Origin: Antedon mediterranea
Taxonomy: Eukaryota > Animalia > Echinodermata
Direction of reading: 5' to 3'
Length of the DNA: 64,000 bases
Assembly: GCF_964355755.1 (NCBI RefSeq)
Contig: NC_092671.1
Coordinates: 38,264,304-38,328,303, forward strand
This document shows, in pieces, positions 14,172-49,807 of this stretch. The notes under the pieces are model-generated. The model was given only the letters and a program-made list of their open reading frames with translations. It did no database searches and was not told where the DNA came from. Within the stretch, counting starts at the first letter, position 1. Each line of letters begins with the position of its first letter. Position numbers and translations under genes: made by a program.

Positions 14172-18211
<4,040 letters not shown>

Positions 18212-25576: not shown

Positions 25577-28500
25577 ATGATGGAGAAAGAAGACGAAGAG
25601 GAAGAAGATGAGGAGAAAGAAGATAAAGACGAAGAAGATATAGAGGATATAAATTGTCAAGCATTTTCCAAGTAGGCCTATTAAAAGAAGCCACCTCACC
25701 TCAGGCGTACGACATCAGTCTAGAAACGTGAAGTATAATGTGTAGGCCCTACAATAATTTTAAACTCAGTTTAGAAACGTAGTTCAAAAGTAACGTTTAC
25801 AAATATTATATTCAAACAAAAAAAACTTCGAGGAATTGTATTGGGATTGAACTATGCATCCATGATGGTTGTAAAATGACGAGGAAAAGAGAAAACTACT
25901 TCATTTGAGAATGGAACATGCTAACTGCTGACCAAACAAGTTGTAAGTATTCGAATTTCAATGTTAAATATAACCTGTGTTTTAAAACTCAACGGTTTGT
26001 AAAATTGTCTTGTTTGGTGGTAAAAATGAATTGGTATAGTGAAAAATACCAGATCTAAATTTACTGTGGTAAAATTAAAACGAATGTGAATTCAGTGCTA
26101 TTCATTTGAAAATATGGTATAAAGCCCTGTCTACACTATCAAACATTATGTGACAACAAAAATGTGATGTTATATGATGCCATATCACTACCATATTTGA
26201 GCACATCACACTTTATTTTGTCAAACTAGTTTGATAGTGTAGACAGAGCTTAAGATATTTTACGTTTCTTCTTTTTATTTTATTTGTACTAAGGTTGTGA
26301 TTAAAGCTACGTTCACACTATACGCACGCGCATATGTTCTGTTATGCGATATAGGCCTATATACCATTACACCTTTCATCTTCCTTTTAGTTAGGTAATT
26401 TCAGATTGTTTTAGAAATGAGTCATTTTAACACAATTTTTCGTTTATATATTTGTGTCTTGTTATGATTTAATAAAATATATTATCATTTTAATTCATCC
26501 GGATGAAACCATCATCTGTATAAATATGACAAGTTTTCCCGCCCTAGCCGAGCTGAATTAAGCAGACACCCTACAACATTTCTGTATCTAGTTAGGCCTA
26601 GCTTTATAAGCTTCACATCCAACAAAGTACAGTTACTGTATATGTTATAAATACTGTCCTTGCTCTGTCCATCGTGATAATAATGTATTAATGAGATTCA
26701 CAGCCTTACAGACTATATAACAGGTACAGTGTATTATATATTGATCATTCTATTATGCTGCCTTCAGTCGTGATCATTCGTTTATAACTAGCCTTATTGA
26801 TCGGATTCGTGCCCTTCGATGAAAGTCGAACACAAGACGTTTGTTTGAGTAAAACTTATTATGTATAAATGCAAACAGACATAATTATTTTTCTGATTAT
26901 CAATTGAGTTACGTTCTTAGTTCGACAAACCACACAGCGAAAATTAAATTTATGTAAATTGGTGACAATTGACTCCATGACAATATTAGCTATTGATTTC
27001 ATATCCTAATGATATTTATTTAATTTTATGCATTTCTGTGATTATTATTATATGGGTCAAAGTCTAGTGTGTCTGTTTTTCCTATTTCAACGCAGAACAT
27101 TTGTTTTCTGCTGCTGTAGAGACGGGTTATAATATTGGGGTTTATGCGGCTGATACTACTGAATGAATAACCCTTGAACACATAACAAGTATACAATACA
27201 GGACTAGATACGACGGCTCAAACACTTTTAATGTTATGCTATGCAGTTTTTTGTCTAATTTAACGATTCGTTTTAAATAGGCCTATTTCCCGGTTGTAGG
27301 TGCTTACGAATACCGTATCTTAATATATATTATATATATATTATTAAGACCTGTAATATAAATGTGTCACTTATGTTTTATATTTCGCCTGAAGAGTGCG
27401 ACCAGCTACATGCTGGTCATACAAAACAGATTTGTAGCGATAAAAACAATGAAGTAACCATGTTTTCTGCTGTTATTTTATTTATTTATGCTCTAAATTG
27501 GTATCGAGCACTCTATCCTAACGGTCTGATACTTTCAACCTTAGTATATAAATATATATGTTTAGTACAAACCAAGCCGTAACAATTAGTTACCATGCGA
27601 AATATTTTGAACTTTTCTGTACGTGAAAAAATATATCGTAATTCTAGGAGAGGTTGTTTGGAAATTCTACTCCACTCCGGTCCGCTAAATGTAAACATTT
27701 GCTTATTTTAACAAAAAATCAATAAACTAGATGACAACATTCTTTTCTTCTTCTTCAATTTCAGTTTACATCAAGATTCGCCAGAGGAATGGAAGCAACC
27801 TTTAGGCCTAGAACGTAAATCTGTGTACTTAACCAATCAGACGTCTGCGCGTCATCCGGGTCTGTTCCTCCAACATTTCACAAATAGTATCAACAACGCG
27901 TTACGTAAACAAACACGCGCACGCACCCGTACATTTTCTGCACACGAACTAATTGCTTTGAGTAACCCGGCTGTGTACAATACATGTCTTAGTAACAAAC
28001 GTAGATGGAGGTCGTCTGATTATCAAAGAACACTCCCGCCAATAAGAGACATAAGTTGTCTGCGTAGAATAAACATATTATCAAGCCGGAACACCAGCAA
28101 TTTAAGTAGCAAAAACAGTGTTCCAAAAAAGCATGAAAATAAACCACTTGGTTGCGTTGTTAAAACAGAGGTACAATGTCAGCTAAAGTTGCCAAAAGTT
28201 ATGGAGATCACCGACCAGTTGGGAAACGATTGGGAAATTATTCAAGGTTGTAAGAGTAAGAATGAAAAAGGAATCCATAAGATGAATAAAGTGATTGATT
28301 TCAAAAAGAAAAATACTGATGAAAAAGGCCAGTCACAATCATCTCTTAATGAAAGACTATCCTCAAGCCCACCAGACGTCCGCAGTACAATTCAAAAACA
28401 AGAAACAGTTTCTACCGATAATAAAATAAACCAAACAAATAAACACAACCTACAACTGAACAAACAACTGGATAATAATGAGGTTATAGAAACAGCAACA

Positions 28501-29991
28501 CATGTTGACAAGAAAACTGTCATGTTAAAATATCAGATGTTAGTAAGAACCGGTAAAATATCTTATACAGAATATCTTCAAATAATGTCGGAAATAGCGC
28601 ATAAATTTCGATTTTATCACCCAAACGAAAGGAGAGGAATACCCATAATATCGGAGCAAACATCAAATGGATCAAGAGTGCCAGTAACAATAGAGGAAAA
28701 ATCGTCCAACATCGACAAGATCCGTATAAGTAACACTATACCACCGGAGACAAACGGAATTTGTAGTAACAACATTTTACCATCGGAGGAGACAAACGGA
28801 ACCTGTAGTAGCAACACTATACCACCGGAGACAAACGGAACCTGTAGTAGCAACACTATACCACCGGAGACAAACGGAACCTGTAGTAGCAACACTATAC
28901 CACCGAAGACAAACGGAATCAGTAGTAGCAACATTTTAAAACCACTGGAGAAAGACGGAATATGCAGTAGTAATACTTTACCACCGGAGTTAGAAAGATT
29001 ATATTCGCGGCCGTTTATTACCACTAAAAACTTAAGTTTGGTAGACAAACTTCCTGCCGACTTTTTACAGAAAGACCGTGACCAAATTCGCTCAATCTAC
29101 CCGATGTTTGATTTTATTCTAGAAAAAGAAAAGCGCCACAATGTTCACAAACATAAAGTACTTACAAATAAGACGCACAGGGTCGAACTTTGCCCACCAT
29201 TGAAATACAGTACTTTTAAACAATTTAAACTACCACTATCATCAGACAATACGAAATTGAAGCAAAAAGTTAACACGAAACACGCTACTATGAAAAACAA
29301 AATAGTTCATCAAGAAAACAACGTAGAATCCAAAAATAAAGTAAGATTACCTGAAGAAACTCTTGTCAAAAATACACAATGTTGTAAAGTTTGTCCTCTA
29401 GCAGATAATCAAAGAAAAACTCGTCAAAACAGTGCTATAACAATGTCTGATCAAAAAGACATGTTACCTAAAATTATACAAAGGGAGAAAGCGGTTGTAG
29501 TAACAGACAGAATTTTATCTAGGCCTAGTAGAGATGCTGACGACGGACAACAGGTAAAAACGGTGGAAAACGACAAGAAACGCGTTACATGGAATGCAGA
29601 AGTAGGCCTACGATTTGATTCTTCGCTCTCTTTTGCAGTTCCAAATCCGCCACCTGTTACGCTGGATTACTGCAGTAACCATTCCATTGATGAAATTTCA
29701 GGGCAAGACAACTTTTCTGTCAAAGACATCGATACAGGTCACAACTATGACAGCGCAGTTGATCTAGTATTGTTTCCTCATCTTCAGCCTTCGGTGAAGA
29801 CGTTGGAATTGTCTCCTTGTCGGCGGTACAATGGTGATCAGCATGCATTGGCTACATCTGCTAACCACGCTGTTAGTCACAAAGTAAATGATGTAAAAAC
29901 TACTAAATGTTCATCAATTAAGACAGAAATTCCGAACAAGCCAATGATGAGCACTCAATATGTTGTATTTGTGTCTCCATTGAAATTATAA
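25577..29991 (+). CDS. Uncharacterised, largely disordered protein (~773 aa if acidic exon 25577-25671 splices to 27765-29991)
   Basis: Long stop-free exon 27765-29991 after a pyrimidine-rich AG acceptor. Acidic ATG exon MMEKEDEEEEDEE... ends at CAA|GTAGGC in matching phase 2. No recognisable folded domain. The first exon is tentative. Confidence 0.6.
26122..26250. mobile_element. MITE family A copy
   Basis: Both TIRs, TAA flanks. Confidence 0.8.
28735..28990 (+). repeat. Coding 39-bp (13-aa, ETNGTCSSNTIPP) tandem repeat, ~6 copies
   Basis: GAGACAAACGGAACCTGTAGTAGCAACACTATACCACCG recurs at 39-bp period inside the orphan ORF. Confidence 0.9.
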
Positions 29992-38301: not shown

Positions 38302-39030
38302 GTTGTTTTTTGCCCAGGTGTGCAATCTGAATGCTGCCCTCTAGAATTATCTAGCAAAAAAACTTTTTACAGTATAATCACAATCATTATCAGTTTAGTC
38401 ATAATTTACCACAACTTACCACAAGTTTAAGAATATTTGCCTCGTCAATATTTTATTATTAATAATCTATATCAGATATTATTTGAAACTCATATATCAT
38501 TATTCTTTTTTAATATGATAAATATGAAAAAAATACACAAAATGACGTGTGACAACAGGGACTTTATTGGTTATTAAACATTTTCGGCTAATTTTTACGA
38601 CACTCAATACTTATCTTCATTCTTTGATATGAAGATGGAAATAATGCATGCGACAATAGATTCACATAACAACATGGTATAGTCCATTTACTCAAAACAA
38701 TTAATGTTTATTACGATAAATATACATCACATGATAATATTACATTAACGCACAAGAGAACATATCAGCAAAATCAAAACAATTCAAATTCTTTGGCTAT
38801 CATTAAAGATCGCATTAACGGATTTATATACAGATCAACGTCTTCATTAGGTCCAATTTATAATTCAGTAAAAGACATTCTTCACATTTTAATCAAGGTA
38901 TGGCTGGCCTGGGCCGCGATTTTCTTTTCGTACATACGTTCGTACATCCTGTCATGCAACGTCACGGCTATCTTTCATTTAAAGAGTCGAACTAACAGCC
39001 GCAGCAATTCGGTCATAATTCAAGTTCTTA

Positions 39031-39187
39031 AGCTTTGTCTACACTAGAAAACTTTATGACAACAAAATGTGATGTGCCCATATATGGACATGATGATGTC
39101 ATATCACTACCATATTTGAGAATATCACTTCCATATTTGGGCAAATCACACTTTTTTTGTCAAACTAGTTTGATAGTGTAGAGAGCT
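39031..39187. mobile_element. MITE family A copy (just past the stop of the DSL/EGF gene)
   Basis: Both TIRs present. Confidence 0.75.
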
Positions 39188-39271
39188 TAACTAGACAGGA
39201 ATGTTTCTAAACTAATAAATACAGCGTTTAATATCTATAATTACAAAATACATTTATTCATTTGTTTCATA

Positions 39272-42200
39272 TTACGCTTTAGACCATTCATCATTCAATA
39301 CTAACATTCCTTGTGAGTTATTAGTGAGACTTTCTGGCGAGAGTTGAAGTTCATAATAATCATTTTCCTCCCTCTCGTCGCTGATATCAAAGGCTGGGTT
39401 CACCGCCTCCGTCCCACCATCAAGAATGTTCGCACCTTGTCTTCGTTGATGCTTTTTGCGTCTTGCTCTGTAAGAACGATAGAAATTAGATAGAAAATAA
39501 AGTATTTGTATGTTCTGTATACTAGGATCATAGACGAGAAAACCTTCTTCTTAATAGGCTTAATATTTTTAGGTCCGTTATTGAAGGCTATATTCAGTGC
39601 AATCGAGTATTGTAGTAGTAGTCTAAGTAGTACCACGACGAGCAATGCTAAAATTCGAAATAAACTAACCTCATAAAACCAACTGTAAATATCATGAGAA
39701 ACAGTACACCTCCAATGGCCACAAATATATACCAGTTGCTGAAAATCTGAAAGAAAAAAAGGTCACCATGAGGAAAGGGACACCTTCGGGTGGTGGGAAC
39801 AAAACAAGCTTATTCATTGTTGTGGAGATTTATCCTATCGATATACTGATAATATTCTTTATACCAAAAAGTAGGTCTAAGTATGGAATTCGAAATGGGA
39901 AGCAATGATACAATCGTAAAAAAGTAAACTTACCGAGTTGGTTTCCTCAACTTGTTTGATCGGTTCGGTTTTTCCTATGTGTATTTTCTGATTGATAGCT
40001 AATGACACATCTTCATCAGAATGTTGATTAAGGAGATTCTCAATCTCACGTGAAATTAAAAGGACATCTGACATAGTTACAATGAATGACACACGAGTCA
40101 CAAGTTCTCTGCAAACAAATTGTAATAAAAAATGATAAAATAATTTTGCACACACAACTTCAATTCTAATGAGACGAATAAGTTTCTATTCTATTACTTA
40201 TCTATTTAAAAAACAAACATACTTCGTCAATATGTCTTCATATTGTTCCGTATCAACAACTGTGGTTTGTACTGAAAGACTACGTTTCGTCTGAGAAGCT
40301 CCAAGAAGCGAGTTCATTCCAGTTTCAAACACCACTTTATCTTCTAAAGATCCAACTACGTAAATAGAATACTGGTGTTTCGACAATTCTAGAAAAACAA
40401 GTTTGTTGTAGGCCTAAATAGATATTCTGTGTCATTTTTGTATTATCTTTACTGGTTAAACTATAAGTTCCAGAAGAATAAAAGTGGTGTAACTCACAGA
40501 GAAAGAAAAAAGAGATCCTTATCAGAAGATGCACTTTACTTCTTTTACTACGACTAGATCTAGACTATCTACTAACTAGATATACAGCTTCTGTTGACAA
40601 TTGTTCAAATTGCGCGGGCAGCATGCTGCCATGCAGTCTATTTTAACACTCACCTATTTCACAGAAAGAACCGTAATAGTTGACGTCACACTTACACATC
40701 AACTTGTCATTTGTTACCTGGCATTTACCATTACCGTTACAAGGATTCTGAGCACATGCGTTCTCCACCAAGGAGTCGCATGTTTTGCCTTCATATAAAT
40801 CGTTGCAATCACACCTGAAAGTTGTATTTTTTTACAAAAATGAATAATGTCTTGATGAATGATTTTTTACTTATTGATTGGAAAAGAAGAATACATGGTA
40901 CAATGATAAAGTGAACGAAAAAAGCGGTTAAAGACAAAATGCGAAGAATATTGGATGAGAAAGTGGAAAGTGTTTACACAACATTTTGTACAATGATTTT
41001 TATTAGTACGATAAGCTGGTGATGAACAAGATGATGAAAGTGTCGAGCATTATATAAAATAAATAAATTCACCTAAATTCTGTAGATAAGTTCACACATT
41101 CTCCGTGTTGACACGGGTTACTGGCACATCCATTGAAATCGTCACAAACGTCACCCGTAAATCCATCTGCGCAGGTGCAAGTGAAATTAGCGATGAGGTC
41201 AACGCAAGTGGCGCCATTTTTACAAGGTTGATTATAGAGTAAGCATTCGTTGATGTTGATTTCACAATTGGTTCCTTTGAATCCGTTTATGCATTGACAG
41301 TAAAACATATCAATGCCATCTGAACACGTTGCATTGTTTAAACATGGATGCGAAATACAATTGTCTTGATTGATCTCGCAGACACTTCCGGTATATCCCG
41401 GTGCGCACACGCAAGAAAATCCTGCAATCATATCTACGCATGTCCCATTATTTTGACACGGACTGGATGCGCATTCATCGTAGTCAGTCTCGCAGTGATT
41501 TCCAACGAAACCAGCGGCACATCCACAATGATAGCCATTTACTTGGTCGATACATGTACCAGAGTTTAAACATGGTGAGCTACTGCATTCGTTGACATCT
41601 ATCTGACAATCGTCACCGTCAAATCCAGATGGGCAGACACACTGATATTGTCCAATCAGATCAATGCAAGTAGCTCCATTAGTACAATGTGCGTCCACAC
41701 AGTCGTCAATATCGATGTCACATAAATCTCCAGTATAACCGATGTCGCATTCACATGAAAACCCTGAAATGTTGTCAGTACACGTTCCGTTGTGTGCACA
41801 TGGGTAACTTGCACATTCATTTATGTTATCACTGCATGTTATTCCATCGAATCCAGCAGAGCATTGGCAGACGAACTTGTCAATATCGTCTGTACATGTC
41901 CCATTATTTCCACATGGTTCACTTGCGCACTCATCTATATCAATTTCGCATTTTATTCCTGTAAAACCACTAGAACATTCACAGCTGTAGCCATTAACGT
42001 GGTCTTGGCACAACCCGTTATTTTCACATGGTGAACTTTGACATTCGTTGACATCCACTTGGCACAGGTGACCTTCAAATCCTTCAAGACATTGACAATA
42101 AAATCCATTGACCTCATCAAGACATGTTCCATTATTCTGGCATGGTGAACTTTGACATTCGTTGACATCCACTTGACACTGGTGACCTTCAAATCCTACT

Positions 42201-45200
42201 TTACACTGGCAATCAAATCCATTGATCTCATCAAGACATGTTCCGTTATTCTGACATGGTGAACTTTGACATTCGTCAATATTGTCCGAACAGACGATTC
42301 CTGTAAATCCGTCTGAACAGGAACAGATATAACCATCGATGAGGTCAATACATGTCGCATTATTTAAACATGGTAAACTTTGACATTCGTCTATGTTGCC
42401 AGAACACCGGACACCATAAAAACCAGGTAAGCAAATACAGAAATATCCGTTGACGTCATCTTGACATGTCGCTCCGTTATAACAAGGATCGGATTGACAT
42501 TCGTTAAAATTTAATTCGCATAAATCTCCCACAAACCCTGGTTGACAAACACATGTGAACGCATCTATAACATCAACACAAGTTGAGTTGTTTTCACACG
42601 GACCACTTAAACACTCATCTATGTCCATCTGACAATGGTCACCAGTGAAACCTCCCGCGCATACGCACAGATATCCATTAATATCGTCAAAGCATGTACC
42701 GTTATGCTGACATGGTGAACTTTGACATTCATTGATATCAATATTACAGGTGTGCCCAGTAAAGCCCAGAGGACATACACAATAGAATTCGTTAATTTTA
42801 TCTAAACAGGTACCGTTATTAATACAAGGATCACTGCTGCACTCGTCAAAGTCTATTTCACAAACATCACCAAGATATCCAGCCTGACATGTGCAATTAA
42901 AACCGTTGAAATAATCGTTACAAACACCACCGTGTTCACATGGTTCACTTAAGCATTCGTCTGTTTCGTTTTCACACAGGAAACCTGAAAATCCTGGAGT
43001 ACACAAGCAGAAGTGTCTGTTTAGTTCGTCTACGCATGTCCCGTTATTCATACACGGAGAACTTTGACATTCATCGACTTCGAGTTGGCACTGCTCGCTG
43101 GTGTAGCCAGGGGCACAGTCACAAAAGTATCTATTGACTTCGTCGTAGCACGTAGCATTGTTAAAACACGGCAGGCTGTCGCATTCATTAAACTCAAACT
43201 CACAATTTGCTCCAAAATAACCACTTGCACATATGCATACATATCCATTTATATTATCATTACACGTCGCTTCATTTTCACATGGATCACTGGCACATTC
43301 ATTTACATCTATCTCACAAAAAAGTCCCGAGAACCCTTCAGCACATGCGCATGTAAAACTACCGATGTCGTCATCACAAGTACCGTTGTTAAAACACGGT
43401 ATACTTTCGCATTCGTTAACGTTAATGCTGCAGGTTTCCCCTTGATAACCAAGAGTACAATCGCATCTAAATTCATTGATGCCGTCATAGCACGATCCAC
43501 CATGTAGACAAGGATAGCTTTCGCATTCGTCTGCGTTGATCTCACACATGTCACCAATAAAACCACTTGAACAATTACACGTAAACCAATTGATATCATC
43601 AATACATGATGCCCCGTTATAACAAGGATAACTATCACATTCGTCAATATCAGTTTCACACAGTGACCCATTATATCCAGGTGGGCACACGCAGGTAAAC
43701 TCATTGATCCCGTCTAAACAAGTCGCTCTGTTCATACAAGGGTTATTGAAACATTCATCTACATTTACGTCACAAATGTCACCGGCGTAACCAGGTGCGC
43801 ATGTACACGTGTATCCATTAACAGCGTCTACGCAGGTCCCATCATGTGCACAAGGTCTACTAGCGCACTCGTCCACGTCCCCCTCACATGTAACCCCCGA
43901 ATAACCATCTAAGCAGTTGCAATAATATCCATTTGGTTGATCCATGCAGGTTGCCGAATTCTGACATGGTGAACTGTAGCATTCGTCGATGTCAACTTCG
44001 CAGAGTGTTCCATTGTATCCGGCATTGCACTGGCAACTGAAGCCGTTGACATCGTCAATGCAAGTTCCCGCGTGTTCACACGGGCCACTCAAACATTCAT
44101 CGATATCCGTCTGACATCGGATCCCTTCAAATCCATCTGGGCAAGTGCAGATGTAGCTGTTAACCATATCAACGCACGTGGCACCATTTTCACAGGGAAA
44201 GCTGTCACAATCATTAATGTTTACTGAGCATGTGCTTCCGGTGTATCCAATCGAACATATGCATTGGTAACTGTCAATTTGGTCTACGCATGTGCCAGAA
44301 TTTAGACAAGGCTCACTCGAGCATTCATTAACATCAACCTCACACCTGATGCCATTGTAACCAGGACTACATATGCACAGAAAGGATGCGATGTGATCGT
44401 AGCAAACGCCTGAGTTGATACACGGACTGCTGGAACATTCATCAATGTTTGTTAAGCAACGATCGCCTGCCCACCCCGGAGTACATGTGCACGTGTAACC
44501 ATTAATGACGTCATTACACACGCCATTATTTTCACATGGACTACTTGAGCATTCGTCGATATTAGTTGTGCATCTGGTGCCTAAAAATAAAGCGTAAAGC
44601 TCAGTCTACACTATCAAACTAGTGCTCAAATATGGTAGTGATATTACCAAATATGGTAATGATGTCTTCGTGTCCATATATATGGGCACATAACATTTTT
44701 TTGTCACATAAAGTTTGATAGTGTAGACAGAGCTTAAGAAGTCATACATCATATAGAAAGCATATTTTTATCGGAAGTAAACATCTCAATATTCTGGAAA
44801 GCTTGACCACCTACCAGAAAAACCTTCGGCACAAGTACACGTAAATCCATTCTGTCCATTGATACAGGTTGCACCATTGGCACATGGCGAAGAGGAGCAT
44901 TCGTTTATGTCTTGGGTACAGGTGGTTCCCTGCCATCCTGGCAGGCAGACTTTCCCGCCAGAATTACTGCAATCATAATGACCACTACTGTCGTCACGTG
45001 GTTGGCAGTAGACGCCACATGTACTACCGTAATAATTGGTGGCGCAGTAACCTCTTACCTTCACTACTAAACTGTAAAATGAATACATTATGTACAGTAA
45101 CTACTTTGCAAGTGTACCATATTGTATGTATATGTATATTTATTTATAACCATCTTTAATGAAGTAATAGGTGGTCTAGAACGCAACGTATCGACGTTAT

Positions 45201-48200
45201 GATTGGTTCCCACTAGAGACGCAACCCAAGGACGTAACGCAACGTATTGACCAATCACACGCGATGGATTATTCGAACTGTCCTTTGTCATTGGTCAACA
45301 CGCTTGCGTTGCGTTTACGTACTTGTGTTGCGTCCTAGTGGGAACCAAGCTTTAGACCATTATATGCGTAAAGCACTGTCTACACTATCAAACTAGTTTG
45401 ACAAAAGAAGTGTGATGTGCCCAAATATGGTAGTGATATTCCCAATATGGCAACATCATATCCATATATTATGGGCACATCACATTTTTTTGTCACATAA
45501 AGTTTGATATTGTAGACAGAGCTTAAGTAAGTATAAGTACACCGTTTTATCGCTTTGCGCGTTGGCGCGCAGTGGTGATTTAACTTTTCGTAAAAGGGGA
45601 TGCAAAATTGACAATGGGTATTTTGTTTGCGCCGTTGCGTTGAGGTAGAATCAATAACTTACGTTGACCGTCTTCCCGTGATCGTAACAGACGTCCATGA
45701 CGATGATGATACCGTCAGGGTAGGCGTGAAATAAATATTGTGTTTATATTCATCTATCTTATCATCTCCAGAGGATCCGTCGTTGTCATGTACGATCCCT
45801 TTTATACGAATTCCATTCTAAATTGAGTAAAAACAAATGTTAGAATTACGCTTTAAGCTTGGTTCGCACTAGCGACGCAACGCAAGGACGTGACGCAACG
45901 ATTTGACCAATCACAAGCGATGGAGTATTCGAACAGTGGCTTACCATTGGTCAACACGCTTACGTTGCGCGCACGTCCTTGCGTTGCGTCGCTAGTGGGG
46001 AACCACGCTTTATTTGATTTAGGCATGTTTACGCAACGTAAAAACAATTGCGAATCCACCTCCTTTCGAAAACTTAAAATTAGTAATATGATACTTTTCA
46101 CATTAGGAAATAAAGGTCATTGCATCTTATGTTTCGCAAGTTTTTTTTCCTGAAATTGTTTGAAAAATTCAACGTAATGAAAGGCTTTTCCAACAATTGC
46201 GAATCTCCCTCATTTCGGAAACTTAATTATGGTGGTATGCACTATTCACACAAGGAAATAAAAGTCATTGCATCTTATGTTTCGCAAGTTTTTTTTTCTG
46301 AAATTCTTGGAAAATACACAGGTCTCTTATTAGTAAATAAATAAATACCATTTCTTCGTTTGCTCACATTAAATGTCGACATTGTAAAAATATACGGATT
46401 GGTTATTCCACCGGAAGCTCCGCTACCAACAGGAAATGTAAAATCGTCATCATCGGAAAAAACTTCACCCATATTTATATCACCTAGGGGACACGTGTCG
46501 AAGTTTCCTTGGGACGCACTGAAAAGATGAAATTATAATTTAAAATTTATTGTAAACATTTTACCATCGGTTGTCATTTTTGATTTATAACATTCTCAAC
46601 TAAAACAATGGAAAACTTATTTGATTCAAGGTTTTACAAAAGGGTTTTTTTTTTCAGTGCAATCATGAAAATGTCTACTGCGTTGTTTTATGAATGAATT
46701 TACTTATTTTTCATTGTTTTCAAAACAGAAAATGAAAAGTAAAGTGTGAGTGTTCTTGGAGACTTACCTTCCAGGAGTATCGAGACAGAAATAGAAGCGA
46801 TTATCACATCTATTTCCACAACTTCCAAAGATACTATCGCAACATCCGCCATTGTAGTCCTCGCTCGTTGGGTTCACGTAACTTACGAACCAGAGTTCAA
46901 CTTTTGTTGCGCAAAAGACACTCTAAACGAAAGAGTAAGACACTTTAAGAGTCACTTGAACCATGGAGATCCTAACTTATTTCTCCATGCTTGAACCTAT
47001 ACTTTGCACTCAAAAATATAAGTTACAATAAATAAATAATAACAAATAAAGTTCGTTTTGTTGACACTTTTTCAGAGTTTGTATTATCATATGGGTCTAG
47101 TATAGGCCTGTTATTGATATAACTAACAAACCAGATTTCAACTTTTGTAGTGCAAAAAACACTCTGCGAAAGAGTAGCCTAAAGAAACTTTAAGAGCTCA
47201 CTTGAATCTGTACTTTGCACTCATTACGGTCGACAAACTTGGCATAGTAACAGTATTTGTATTGTCAATTTGCATTGCAACGATTTCTTATTAGACCATT
47301 TATGGAGGTATAAGACCTCTACTGTCATCTGTGACGTCACAACGAATGCTTATTTTGTTTTTCTTTAAAAATGTTCATATGTCTGAATGAACAAAAAGTT
47401 TGAAATATACAATCATTAGGCCTATAAGTTGCCTTATGTTTTATTTTTCACGCTGCTGCTCTAGCCCGCTACGTCCCATTAGGACTACTCAATCAGAAGC
47501 TAAAGCAAGCAGCAGTTATAGTTCTAAGGACAGACAGTTTTGTGAAAATGGAAACTCCACTATGATTTATTGATTCCAGCTGCTACAGTAGACCCAAAAA
47601 ACGTCTGGGAAAGAGTCTATTAGGACATGTCATGCTAAAATTACAAATCCCTAAGCATTTCTGGTATATTCACTGTCAGATATTAAAGTTTGTGTTTGTA
47701 ATAGGATACTTCACAATTGAAATATCTAGGGTGATGAAGTGACCCCCAGATTTGACCTTAGCAATAAAATTAACTAAAGTTACAGAAATTGAGTATTTAC
47801 TTCTGTAACAAAAAAATAATATTTATTCACATATAAAAAAAGAAAAGAAACCCAAAAACCATTGTCTGACAGACAATTTAAGTATTTGTTGCTTTAAATT
47901 ACATTTTGCAGTTGCATAAAAAATAACTATTATGTGACAATAAAATGACACATTCAAAAACATTTGAAATAAAAAATATTTTTCAATAAGCAAGCAGCGT
48001 TTTTTGTAAGAAATATTTCTTGTTTATTCAATATTCTGCACCGAGGCGCCTCACTCTTTTCAAGCCTTCCTTCAAGGCGCCTCAGATTAATATAAATACA
48101 ATATTCATACAAGAGAAACAGAAAACAGATAAATCAATCAAATCTTCCAGAATTAACAAAACATGTTTGTACATTAATAAAACAATAGAGCATTTTTATG

Positions 48201-49807
48201 AGTCGAAAGAAAATCATATCCAAAAATAATATTTTAACTCAATTTAAAATGATAACGTTTAAAGAAAAATCCTTGGCCTCAGGCTCTGTCTACACAGTCT
48301 ATCAAACTTTATGTGACAAAATATGATGTGATCATAATGGACATGTTGATGTCATGCCACTACCATATTTGGACATATCACTACCATATTTGGGCACATC
48401 ACACTTTTTTGTCAAACTAGTTTGATAGTGTAGACAGAGCTTAGGATCCTCAAGTTAGCGTTTACAAGTAGAACATCTCTCTTTGCATGAATATAATAGA
48501 GAGCAAAAATCCGATTTCAATTTCATTAAAGCCACAATACAAAATTTGGACTGTCCCGTGTCCATGTAAACAATTTTACGGAGTTTGTTTTATCTTATCA
48601 TAATATATAGGCCTATATAATTGATACCGTCATTGAAATAGTGCCCAATAGATGATGGTCATGGGGAATTAAACAAAATGTCTGTGGAAGAACCGTACAG
48701 TACGGTATGCAATTCGCCGCAGGAGCCATTTGGGATTTACCAGATACATTTACATAGAAATCCAAGACGGTAACATTTCCGTGTTAGTTTTTTTTAAAAC
48801 CTTTTATCAAAGAGGTATTGTCTCCCAAAATCATGAAAAAATAAAGATTTATAAAATCAGACTTTGAATAGGCCATTTTGTAGTTGTAATGAAGTTAATC
48901 AATTCAGTTATGATTTTAAACCCAATTTGCCTGATAGACAATTTGACAATTTTTTGCTTTAAATTACCGTTATCAGGTAAATAATTTTTGTTGCCGATCC
49001 ATTTTTTGGTCAAAATGAATAACTATTATAATTATGCAACATTAAAATGACATATTCACAAAAAAAAATGATTTAAGAATTATTGGTTGAGGTGGACAAT
49101 ATTATAATAAAACGTTATATGCCTATGTTGGTTTAGGCCTACTTTCATTTTGAATGATAACATTATTATATCATGTTTCAACTGTACATTTTGACATTAA
49201 AAGATAATTTTATAAACACGCGTTGCTGGTTGTGTCCTAAAATGTCACTTTCCTCATTATTAAAACCATATTGAAATAAAAATCGTTGGTCCTATTAATG
49301 TTAACTAATTAATGAAAACTAAGTAGGTCTATAGAAATAATATTATTTTATTTGAGATAGAAAAACAAAGCATCGGTGTTAAGATTGAGGACAACCAAGG
49401 CTCAAAATTCTGAATAATATACTTAAGCCTAAAGTAGCCTACATATATACAAAATACAATTATATACTCAAAAAACTACTATTCAAAAAGTTGAAAACAA
49501 GATTTCAAAATATATATATCAAGATTAAAAATTCAAGCTGCTATATCACCTTTGACAGATATATCTTACCTAATTTAAATAAATATAACAGTGACAATTA
49601 TCGAAAGGTCTTTCTCCGTGCGTATTGTAAGGAATTTAGAGTTACAGGTGGTAATACCAAATTCAACGAAATTTCAATCAAATTTCAATCAACAGGTGAA
49701 CTCGGAGTCGCGACGAATTTCCTATGGCTATAAATGCGTATTGTTTTCAATTACTTACTTACCTTTGTAAAAAATATTCCAAGAACAAAAACTATATTAA
49801 CCAACAT
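39272..49807 (-). CDS. Delta/Serrate-like (DSL) type I membrane protein with 33 EGF repeats, ~1681 aa
   Basis: Exons 49807-49763 (signal peptide MLVNIVFVLGIFFTK), 46922-46768, 46518-46368, 45817-45663 (MNNL/C2-like), 45071-44815 (DSL CATNYYGSTCGVYCQPRDDSSGHYDCSNSGGKVCLPGWQGTTC + EGF1), 44580-41073 (EGF2-32), 40814-40654, 40388-40223, 40108-39934, 39746-39670 (TM), 39467-39272 (tail). Total 5046 nt, in frame, GT-AG throughout. Confidence 0.88.
44598..44734. mobile_element. MITE family A copy
   Basis: Both TIRs, TAA TSD. Confidence 0.8.
45372..45523. mobile_element. MITE family A copy
   Basis: Both TIRs, TAA TSD. Confidence 0.8.
45856..46009. mobile_element. MITE family B copy
   Basis: TTA|AGCTTGGTTCGCACTAGCGACGCAACGCAAG ... 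CTTGCGTTGCGTCGCTAGTGGGGAACCACGCT|TTA. Confidence 0.75.
48283..48441. mobile_element. MITE family A copy
   Basis: Both TIRs present. Confidence 0.75.

What the first reader, a model, noticed from the sequence alone, without database searches (positions are those of the whole stretch)
39272..49807. Notch-ligand head (MNNL+DSL) on a Notch-receptor-sized stalk of 33 EGF repeats
Seen: an in-frame 11-exon model encoding signal peptide, MNNL/C2-like region (VELWFVSYVNP...GGCCD...CDNRFYFCLD), a textbook DSL domain, 33 EGF repeats, a juxtamembrane domain, a TM helix and a ~65-aa tail. Most repeats carry the Ca-binding (D/N)I(D/N)EC start and the C-x-S-x-P-C O-glucose and C-x-x-x-x-T-C O-fucose consensus. 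Known: Delta ligands have roughly 6-9 EGFs, Serrate/Jagged about 14-16 plus a VWC, and both usually have atypical DOS EGFs after the DSL; Notch receptors have up to 36 such EGFs. Here the DSL runs straight into regular Ca-EGFs, with no DOS-type repeats, VWC, LNR or ankyrins. Inference: a non-canonical long-reach Notch ligand, decoy or cis-inhibitor that automated annotation would probably label 'fibropellin/Notch-like'.
Basis: partly seen in the sequence, partly recalled or inferred. Interest (0 to 1): 0.85.

Follow-up and report, generated by a model that had tools for sequence, protein, structure and literature searches.

The report
Notch-ligand-like tether missing key binding residue
This stretch holds a transcribed gene, likely from a feather star, predicted to make a membrane protein with a Notch-ligand-type head on a stalk of 33 EGF repeats; the head lacks a residue that Jagged needs to bind Notch, so it likely works as a long cell-surface tether or uptake receptor, not as an ordinary Notch signal.

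Summary
In detail: 11 GT-AG exons give a stop-free 1681-aa frame with signal peptide, C2/MNNL, DSL, 33 EGF repeats, TM and a 65-aa tail. One RNA-like run splices exons 6-11 exactly, but shows no exon 4-5 or 5-6 joint; its contigs run into those introns. Crinoid orthologues (Anneissia) and two starfish proteins join DSL directly to calcium-type EGFs, so the layout is shared among echinoderms. The interpretation needs changing. The DSL face has Ser where Jagged1 has F207 (F207A abolishes Notch binding). The tail has an NPx[Y/F] motif and no Neuralized motif. The juxtamembrane domain folds like SEA/MAD domains of PCDH15, CDH23 and CELSR1 and carries a dibasic loop. The stalk is not in register with Notch receptors. 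Long EGF arrays on DSL proteins (up to 75 reported; at least 22 in cnidarian Jagged) and DOS-less ligands are already known. Verdict: a new variant of the DSL family, most likely a Notch-independent tether or endocytic receptor (0.45); Notch decoy or modulator 0.28; true long-range ligand 0.1; mainly a short secreted isoform 0.12. The scan had not noted this gene on other DNA.

The parts
49763..49807 (-). Exon 1 (coding): start codon and most of the predicted signal peptide
   Evidence: First Met after an in-frame stop; hydrophobic N-terminus; no signal-peptide predictor was run
46768..46922 (-). Exon 2: start of the C2/MNNL domain
   Evidence: Pfam MNNL E 6e-06; 82% identical to Anneissia P0175
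46368..46518 (-). Exon 3: C2 domain, middle
   Evidence: 71% identical to P0175; C2 fold in the orthologue model
45663..45817 (-). Exon 4: C2 domain, end, with an acidic loop aligned to the Jagged calcium-binding loop
   Evidence: 80% identical to P0175; alignment; X1 contig of 709 nt leaves the genome at 45817 with 460 nt upstream
44815..45071 (-). Exon 5: DSL domain and EGF1
   Evidence: Pfam DSL E 3e-18; an X1 contig ends exactly at the acceptor 45071
44984..44986 (-). Ser198, the position of Jagged1 F207 on the Notch-binding face
   Evidence: Alignment; no X1 difference listed at this codon
44581..44814 (-). Intron 5 (234 nt), mostly a high-copy repeat that ends about 12 nt from the acceptor; if retained, the frame stops 8 codons in and gives a short secreted C2-DSL-EGF1 form
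   Evidence: X1 contigs enter it from both sides
41073..44580 (-). Exon 6 (3508 nt): EGF2 to EGF32, regular 38-residue calcium-type repeats
   Evidence: covered by X1 and by DNA contigs except 42056-42146
40654..40814 (-). Exon 7: end of EGF32 and EGF33
   Evidence: length fits the spliced X1 contig
40223..40388 (-). Exon 8: first half of the SEA/MAD-like domain, with a Lys-Arg pair in an exposed loop
   Evidence: 62% identical to P0304; fold of the orthologue domain
39934..40108 (-). Exon 9: second half of the SEA/MAD-like domain
   Evidence: 68% identical to P0304; laid as its own piece of the spliced X1 contig
39670..39746 (-). Exon 10: transmembrane helix (residues 1598-1616)
   Evidence: Hydropathy maximum 2.56; the 77-nt gap in the spliced X1 contig fits exactly
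39272..39467 (-). Exon 11 (coding): 65-aa cytoplasmic tail with an NPxF motif, no NxxN, 3 lysines; stop codon
   Evidence: X1 contig runs on to 39156 as 3' UTR

Best explanation
The gene encodes a C2-DSL head on 33 EGF repeats, a predicted SEA/MAD-like base, one membrane helix and a short NPxF tail, and it likely works as a long cell-surface tether or uptake receptor that binds Notch weakly or not at all. Shown: the domains, the exon chain, transcription with exons 6-11 spliced, Ser at the F207 position, the tail motifs, and relatives with the same layout in a crinoid and two starfish. Inferred mechanism: calcium-bound, O-glycosylated repeats would hold the head up to about 100 nm from the membrane (about 3 nm a domain). 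The C2 domain, which keeps acidic loop residues, would grip a membrane or lipid-bearing particle. The altered DSL face would bind a partner other than Notch. The SEA/MAD domain, perhaps pre-cut by a convertase at its dibasic loop, would yield or shed under load. The NPx[Y/F] tail would link to PTB/FERM adaptors for endocytosis or anchoring.
For: F207 position: hydrophobic in 8 of 8 DOS-bearing ligands aligned (6 F, 1 L, 1 Y, including a sea-urchin protein with F), polar in 7 of 7 DOS-less proteins (S,T,T,K,Q,T,R). Jagged1 F207A cannot bind or activate Notch (PMC3888931 passages); the same face serves cis and trans interactions (PMC3415683 passages). Tail: NPx[Y/F] in this protein, Anneissia P0304, Asterias and Patiria (4 of 4), absent from 3 of 3 Jagged tails checked (the motif's adaptor role is recalled); no NxxN Neuralized motif (PMC12678834). 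Base domain of the orthologue: PCDH15 MAD12 Z 10.5 (rmsd 3.4, 100 aligned), CDH23 MAD28 Z 9.7, CELSR1 Z 8.9, Nup54 Z 11.2, MUC16 SEA Z 7.7, Notch2 HD Z 6.0. A basic pair or triplet lies in the same loop in 4 of 4 echinoderm proteins aligned. Tree: the crinoid trio groups 100/99 outside the Jagged clade 100/99.
Against: No binding partner is identified and nothing functional was tested. R203 and D205 positions and an aromatic at F199 are kept, and the C2 domain also contacts Notch in solved complexes (recalled). DOS-less ligands (DLL4, C. elegans) do signal (PMC2504490). Anneissia P0304 and Asterias P0095 tails do contain an NxxN. The base fold rests on one of five models (pLDDT 76.7; the others 62 to 37), Foldseek E only 8e-3, and was predicted for the orthologue, not this protein. 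The joint that makes the long form was not seen in RNA.
Confidence: 0.45

Rival explanations
1. A non-canonical Notch modulator (weak ligand, decoy or cis-inhibitor): the C2-DSL head still touches Notch through retained residues but cannot be pulled efficiently.
For: Intact C2-DSL fold closest to DLL1 and Jagged; aromatic, Arg and Asp kept at F199, R203, D205 positions; few tail lysines and no NxxN, and Delta lacking ligase sites shows increased cis-inhibition (PMC5675594 passages); 'DSL-only' ligands were proposed as competitors (PMC2504490).
Against: [quoted passage not shown]
Confidence: 0.28
2. The main product is a short secreted C2-DSL-EGF1 protein made by retaining intron 5 (stop 8 codons in); the long membrane form is minor, or the EGF-TM part is used separately.
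For: In X1, contigs enter intron 5 from both sides and no exon 5-6 joint is listed; a high-copy repeat ends about 12 nt from the acceptor; one Anneissia model (P0175) is short, 312 aa; depth in X1 falls from 46 (3' end) to 7-8 (5' exons).
Against: Contigs show presence, not absence, and pre-mRNA or assembly pruning next to a repeat at depth 1e5-1e6 explains the pattern; splice sites are canonical and in phase; P0175 reads through this very junction into EGF2-3, and P0304, P0095, P0278 join DSL to EGF array and TM (these are annotation models); no polyadenylation hexamer in intron 5; exon 6 has no start or signal peptide of its own.
Confidence: 0.12
3. A true long-reach trans-activating Notch ligand that signals across wide gaps or matrix.
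For: Complete type I ligand layout; cnidarian Jagged proteins carry at least 22 EGFs with an intact face, so long ligands exist; an endocytic tail motif could supply pulling force without ubiquitin ligases.
Against: Ser at F207, Gln at R201, no DOS, no NxxN, only 3 tail lysines (2 beside the membrane), no C-terminal ATEV-like motif; a sea-urchin DOS-bearing ligand keeps the Phe.
Confidence: 0.1

Closest known systems
Anneissia japonica XP_033111995.1 ('delta-like protein C', P0175) and XP_033112004.1/5.1 ('fibropellin-1-like', P0304/P0183)
   Same: 71-82% identity over C2-DSL-EGF1 exons, 62-68% over the base domain; DSL followed directly by calcium-type EGF; polar residue at F207; NPxF tail; EGF16-23 in positional register (Z 2.48, 2 of 300 shuffles).
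   Different: Annotated as two models on equally long contigs (947,859 bases): one ends after EGF3, the other jumps from a broken EGF1 to the EGF16 equivalent and has 11 repeats. Whether this is real deletion or assembly/annotation error could not be checked. Names are automatic; none of the five accessions searched appears in the held papers.
Starfish XP_071788874.1 (Asterias, P0095) and XP_038077196.1 (Patiria, 'fibropellin-1-like', P0278)
   Same: C2-DSL, direct calcium-type EGFs, alignable base domain with basic loop, TM, NPLY tail, polar F207 position.
   Different: 15-17 EGFs; base domain only 19-28% identical to P0304 and P0095 was not hit by the phmmer search with this base domain; C2-DSL tree leaves P0278 unresolved on a long branch, so orthology is inferred from layout.
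Delta / Delta-like (DLL1, DLL4, DLL3; C. elegans LAG-2 type)
   Same: Signal peptide, C2, DSL, EGFs, TM, no VWC; DLL3, DLL4 and worm ligands also lack DOS (PMC2504490).
   Different: 33 versus 5-9 EGFs; extra SEA/MAD-like domain; F207 position polar; no NxxN or ATEV-type end.
Serrate / Jagged (including long cnidarian Jagged, P0272, P0275)
   Same: C2-DSL head, many calcium-type EGFs (at least 22 in Nematostella and Rhopilema), and a ferredoxin-like juxtamembrane domain (Pfam JAG1, weak hits).
   Different: No DOS repeats, no cysteine-rich VWC region, outside the Jagged clade, polar F207 position.
Notch receptor ectodomain; tip-link cadherins PCDH15/CDH23 (works-like comparison only)
   Same: Long calcium-stiffened, repeat-built stalk ending in a SEA-like membrane-adjacent domain; O-glycan consensus sites as in Notch.
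   Different: No LNR, RAM or ankyrin; EGF array not in register with 7 Notch proteins (63-151 of 300 shuffles as good); no cadherin repeats. Shared fold shows no function.

Membership tests
DSL protein superfamily | N-terminal C2/MNNL domain | tested here: met
   Pfam MNNL above cut-off on exon 2; orthologue model matches ligand C2-DSL structures
DSL protein superfamily | DSL domain followed by EGF repeats and a TM helix | tested here: met
   Pfam DSL E 3e-18; 33 EGF; TM 1598-1616. The joining splice is supported by orthologue models, not by RNA here
Canonical Notch ligands (Delta, Serrate/Jagged) | DSL face F199-R201-R203-D205-F207 | tested here: not met
   Y-Q-R-D-S; F207A is a binding null in Jagged1
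Canonical Notch ligands (Delta, Serrate/Jagged) | Atypical DOS EGF1-2 after the DSL | tested here: not met
   DSL runs into a regular calcium-type EGF. Not obligatory: DLL4 lacks it
Canonical Notch ligands (Delta, Serrate/Jagged) | Neuralized-binding NxxN in the tail | tested here: not met
   None in the 65-aa tail. Not obligatory: DLL4 and JAG2 lack it
Canonical Notch ligands (Delta, Serrate/Jagged) | Mind bomb N-box/C-box | tested here: inconclusive
Canonical Notch ligands (Delta, Serrate/Jagged) | Binds and activates Notch | not testable with these tools
   Needs binding and reporter assays
Serrate/Jagged | VWC cysteine-rich domain after the EGFs | tested here: not met
   No cysteine after residue 1475
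Serrate/Jagged | Groups with Jagged in a C2-DSL tree | tested here: not met
   Jagged clade 100/99 excludes it (24 rows)
Bilaterian Delta (definition of PMC5356439) | MNLL-DSL-9 EGF-TM-ATEV with no further domain | tested here: not met
   33 EGF, extra SEA/MAD-like domain, no ATEV end; by that paper's scheme it falls under 'DSL-like'
Bilaterian Delta (definition of PMC5356439) | Groups with Delta in a tree | tested here: inconclusive
   No named Delta sequence was among the 24 rows
Notch receptor | LNR, NOD/NODP, ankyrin repeats | tested here: not met
   No Pfam hit in the exons scanned; 65-aa tail
Notch receptor | EGF array in positional register with Notch | tested here: not met
   0 of 7 Notch proteins beat shuffles; these were partial, and those with a named species are vertebrate
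SEA / MAD ferredoxin-like domains | Membrane-adjacent beta-alpha-beta-beta-alpha fold | tested here: met
   Orthologue domain: E-H-E-E-H-H, Z 8.9-11.2 to MAD/SEA-like chains; no Pfam SEA hit by sequence

The most novel reading that the evidence does not exclude
An echinoderm family in which a Notch-ligand head has been re-aimed away from Notch and set on a receptor-like body: a stalk of up to about 100 nm whose length varies by lineage (11 to 33 repeats), a convertase-cut SEA/MAD 'mechanical fuse' at its base and an NPxY-type tail. It would act as a force-released tether or receptor in its own right, possibly binding the Notch-like glycosylated stalk of its own kind on a facing cell.
Probability: 0.12. 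Interest if true: 0.75.

Novelty: new variant of a known kind. Interest (0 to 1): 0.42.

Why it matters
Automated pipelines name these proteins 'Delta-like' or 'fibropellin-like', and surveys count any MNNL+DSL+EGF protein as Delta. This one shows that such counts include proteins whose Notch-binding face has decayed. If it is a Notch-independent tether or receptor, it gives a tractable test of what the many orphan invertebrate C2-DSL proteins do, and of whether the C2-DSL module has a function apart from Notch. If it does modulate Notch, it is a natural test of how stalk length and loss of F207 change signalling. The stalk length alone is not a record.

Tried and rejected
No whole genome is held for the window, so the presence of canonical Delta, Serrate and Notch in this animal was not checked. 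No run is on record as RNA; X1 is a guess by the tool, taken as RNA because one contig skips introns 6-10 exactly. A second lay aimed at the exon 5-6 joint listed 7 joints, all inside the intron repeat, none matching the splice; contigs cannot show absence. A word search with the DSL alone gave 2 candidates, none significant. The atlas search with exon 5 gave only generic DSL/EGF clusters below 0.9; with the base domain, unnamed, SEA, collectrin, CD34 and PCDH15 clusters below 0.9 and a KIAA1549-related structure at TM 0.65: leads only. Idea that the stalk was copied from a Notch receptor: rejected (a sea-urchin fibropellin-like protein reached 5 of 300, one of 20 tests). Idea that the array is a recent tandem burst or an assembly collapse: repeats are about 50% alike except EGF22/23 (84%), and DNA depth is flat at 34-39 in X2, which may be the source sample. 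No second full copy of the gene in the window. Allelic differences in X1: of 33 coding codons affected among the rows shown (121 rows were withheld), 21 change a residue, 12 do not, none makes a stop or removes a cysteine; pN/pS about 0.42, too partial to interpret. Mapping Jagged1 D72/D140 by fixed offset failed because of indels; the acidic-loop statement rests on the alignment by eye. Four rows classed as calcium-EGF by my pattern (P0190, P0200, P0201, P0250) were misclassified and are not counted. Ten isoform or near-copy rows were on the skip list for the tree (30 selected, 24 kept). No complex prediction was run: no cognate Notch was on hand and a pass would mirror solved structures. Literature searches found no description of this family; the sea-urchin Notch-pathway survey (PMC1880897) is not held and may list such genes; Figure 8 and the DOC supplements of PMC2770060 could not be read, so the species with 75 EGFs and its layout are unknown.
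Full report
Gene model. Reading the region and building the model gave 11 minus-strand exons from 49807 to 39272, every intron GT..AG and in phase, 1681 residues with one terminal stop. Pfam on in-frame exons (10 of the 11 exons were scanned, exon 1 being too short) gave MNNL on exon 2 (E 6e-06, above cut-off), DSL plus a calcium-type EGF on exon 5 (E 3e-18), 31 EGF stretches on exon 6 and EGF on exon 7; exons 3, 4, 8-11 gave nothing above cut-off. There are 33 repeats; 29 of 33 fit the O-glucose, 27 the O-fucose and 27 both calcium consensus motifs (patterns recalled). No cysteine follows EGF33.

Transcription. Five runs hold the DNA, none on record as RNA. In run X1 one 1133-nt contig lies on 41070-41314, 39934-40108 and 39156-39467 with gaps in the contig that equal exons 7+8 and exon 10 exactly, so exons 6 to 11 are spliced as modelled. 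A 709-nt contig covers exon 4 and has 460 nt upstream that leave the genome at the exon 4 acceptor, consistent with exons 1-3 (inferred; the pieces were not listed). Against the model: that contig runs on into intron 4, and two others enter intron 5 from both sides; no exon 4-5 or 5-6 joint is listed. One contig ends exactly at the exon 5 acceptor, a weak hint of splicing there. Both introns hold repeats at depth 1e5 or more, which can distort such assemblies (inference). Retaining intron 5 would give a secreted C2-DSL-EGF1 protein. DNA runs cover exon 6 at flat depth apart from a break in the EGF22-24 tandem; they may be the source sample.

Relatives. The best single-DSL hit among 1.84 billion representatives was P0175, and P0183 also carries the base domain and tail; both are Anneissia japonica RefSeq models, 71-82% identical over exons 2-5. 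The window is therefore likely from a crinoid. Asterias P0095 and Patiria P0278 have the same order of parts with 17 and 15 repeats. An unnamed transcript-sized protein (P0238) has C2, two DSLs, three EGFs, a similar base and tail. P0175 reads through the exon 5-6 junction and P0304, P0095, P0278 link DSL to EGFs and TM, which supports the long form, though these are annotation models. Anneissia P0304 matches EGF16-23 in register, so part of the long array predates the split of the two crinoids. In print, 'Delta' proteins range from 0 to 75 EGFs (PMC2770060, passages), DSL proteins with extra domains are set aside as 'DSL-like' (PMC5356439, passages), and DSL/EGF expansions are reported in molluscs (PMC8166818, passages).

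Head. The orthologue's model (pLDDT 87) matches DLL1, Jagged and DLL4 C2-DSL structures. The Notch-binding face of Jagged1 is F199, R201, R203, D205, F207 and serves both cis and trans interactions (PMC3415683, passages); F207A cannot bind Notch but still binds liposomes (PMC3888931, passages). Here the face reads Y, Q, R, D, S. The F207 position is hydrophobic in 8 of 8 DOS-bearing ligands aligned, a sea-urchin one included, and polar in 7 of 7 DOS-less proteins. In the wider pattern count it was F in 11 of 12 DOS rows (four of them Nematostella isoforms), in none of 12 true calcium-EGF rows, and in 30 of 202 other DSL rows, so loss of this Phe is common outside canonical ligands. Acidic residues in the two C2 loops that bind calcium in Jagged appear kept (alignment by eye). 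Lack of DOS is by itself no bar to signalling (PMC2504490, passages). In a 24-row C2-DSL tree the crinoid trio (100/99) lies outside the Jagged clade (100/99); no named Delta was in the tree and the starfish row is unresolved.

Stalk. Repeats are about 50% alike, EGF22/23 84%. None of 7 Notch proteins is in register with the array. At about 3 nm a domain (four ligand domains span 120 A, PMC3415683) it could reach about 100 nm if extended (inference).

Base and tail. The Anneissia base domain folds as a ferredoxin-like unit in the best of five models (pLDDT 76.7) and matches PCDH15 MAD12 (Z 10.5), CDH23 MAD28 (9.7), CELSR1 (8.9), Nup54 (11.2), MUC16 SEA (7.7) and the Notch2 heterodimerisation region (6.0) (Foldseek E 8e-3 at best). 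A basic pair or triplet sits in the disordered loop after helix 1 in 4 of 4 echinoderm proteins, a possible convertase site (inference). The tail has NPx[Y/F] in 4 of 4 echinoderm proteins and in none of 3 Jagged tails, no NxxN in this protein though two relatives have one (motif from PMC12678834 and PMC5675594, passages), and 3 lysines.

Reading. The parts that make a canonical ligand work (F207 face, DOS, ligase motif, ATEV end) are each missing or altered, while parts typical of tethers and uptake receptors (long stiff stalk, SEA/MAD base, NPx[Y/F]) are conserved across echinoderms. I commit to a Notch-independent tether or endocytic receptor at 0.45, against a weak Notch modulator at 0.28, a mainly secreted short form at 0.12 and a true long-range ligand at 0.10. 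It is a member of the DSL superfamily but not of Delta or Jagged as defined in print. Six literature searches found no account of the family; the sea-urchin survey and key supplements were not readable. PMC12166595, PMC10970066 and bioRxiv 10.1101/2025.09.30.679519 were seen as passages and added only that ligand domain content varies. The scan's index had no look-alike and no Notch-ligand note for this genome; one note on a different atypical ligand array in a placozoan came up.

Noticed in passing
window 47120-47165 (minus strand), intron 1: An 87% copy of the 5' end of exon 2 with an acceptor-like AG; read on it stops after 46 codons. A decoy acceptor or remnant of a partial duplication.
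   Followed up: partly
window 44592-44738, 45366-45527, 39025-39193, 48276-48445: Copies of a very high-copy miniature inverted-repeat-like element with a 21-nt internal unit; the copy in intron 5 ends about 12 nt from the acceptor of the large EGF exon and might weaken that splice.
   Followed up: partly
window 45197-45350 and 45853-45997: A second high-copy repeat family with inverted arms, in introns 4 and 3.
   Followed up: no
window about 17470-17560 (minus strand): Exon with a BTB_3 domain start (E 1.7e-07), probably a BTBD10/KCTD20-type gene (name recalled).
   Followed up: no
window 27712-29991 (plus strand): A 759-codon open frame with a 39-nt tandem repeat and no Pfam hit above cut-off.
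   Followed up: no
proteins P0272 and P0275: Nematostella and Rhopilema Jagged models carry at least 22 regular EGF repeats, above the 12-18 range reported for Jagged in PMC2770060.
   Followed up: partly
protein P0106: A nemertean (Tubulanus) protein with a degenerate ligand-like N-terminus, a Gla domain, a long EGF array and a Jagged-type base.
   Followed up: no
window 43683-43847 and 41399-41488: Dense clusters of differences in run X1 relative to the window, many changing residues, suggesting divergent haplotype blocks in the EGF array.
   Followed up: partly
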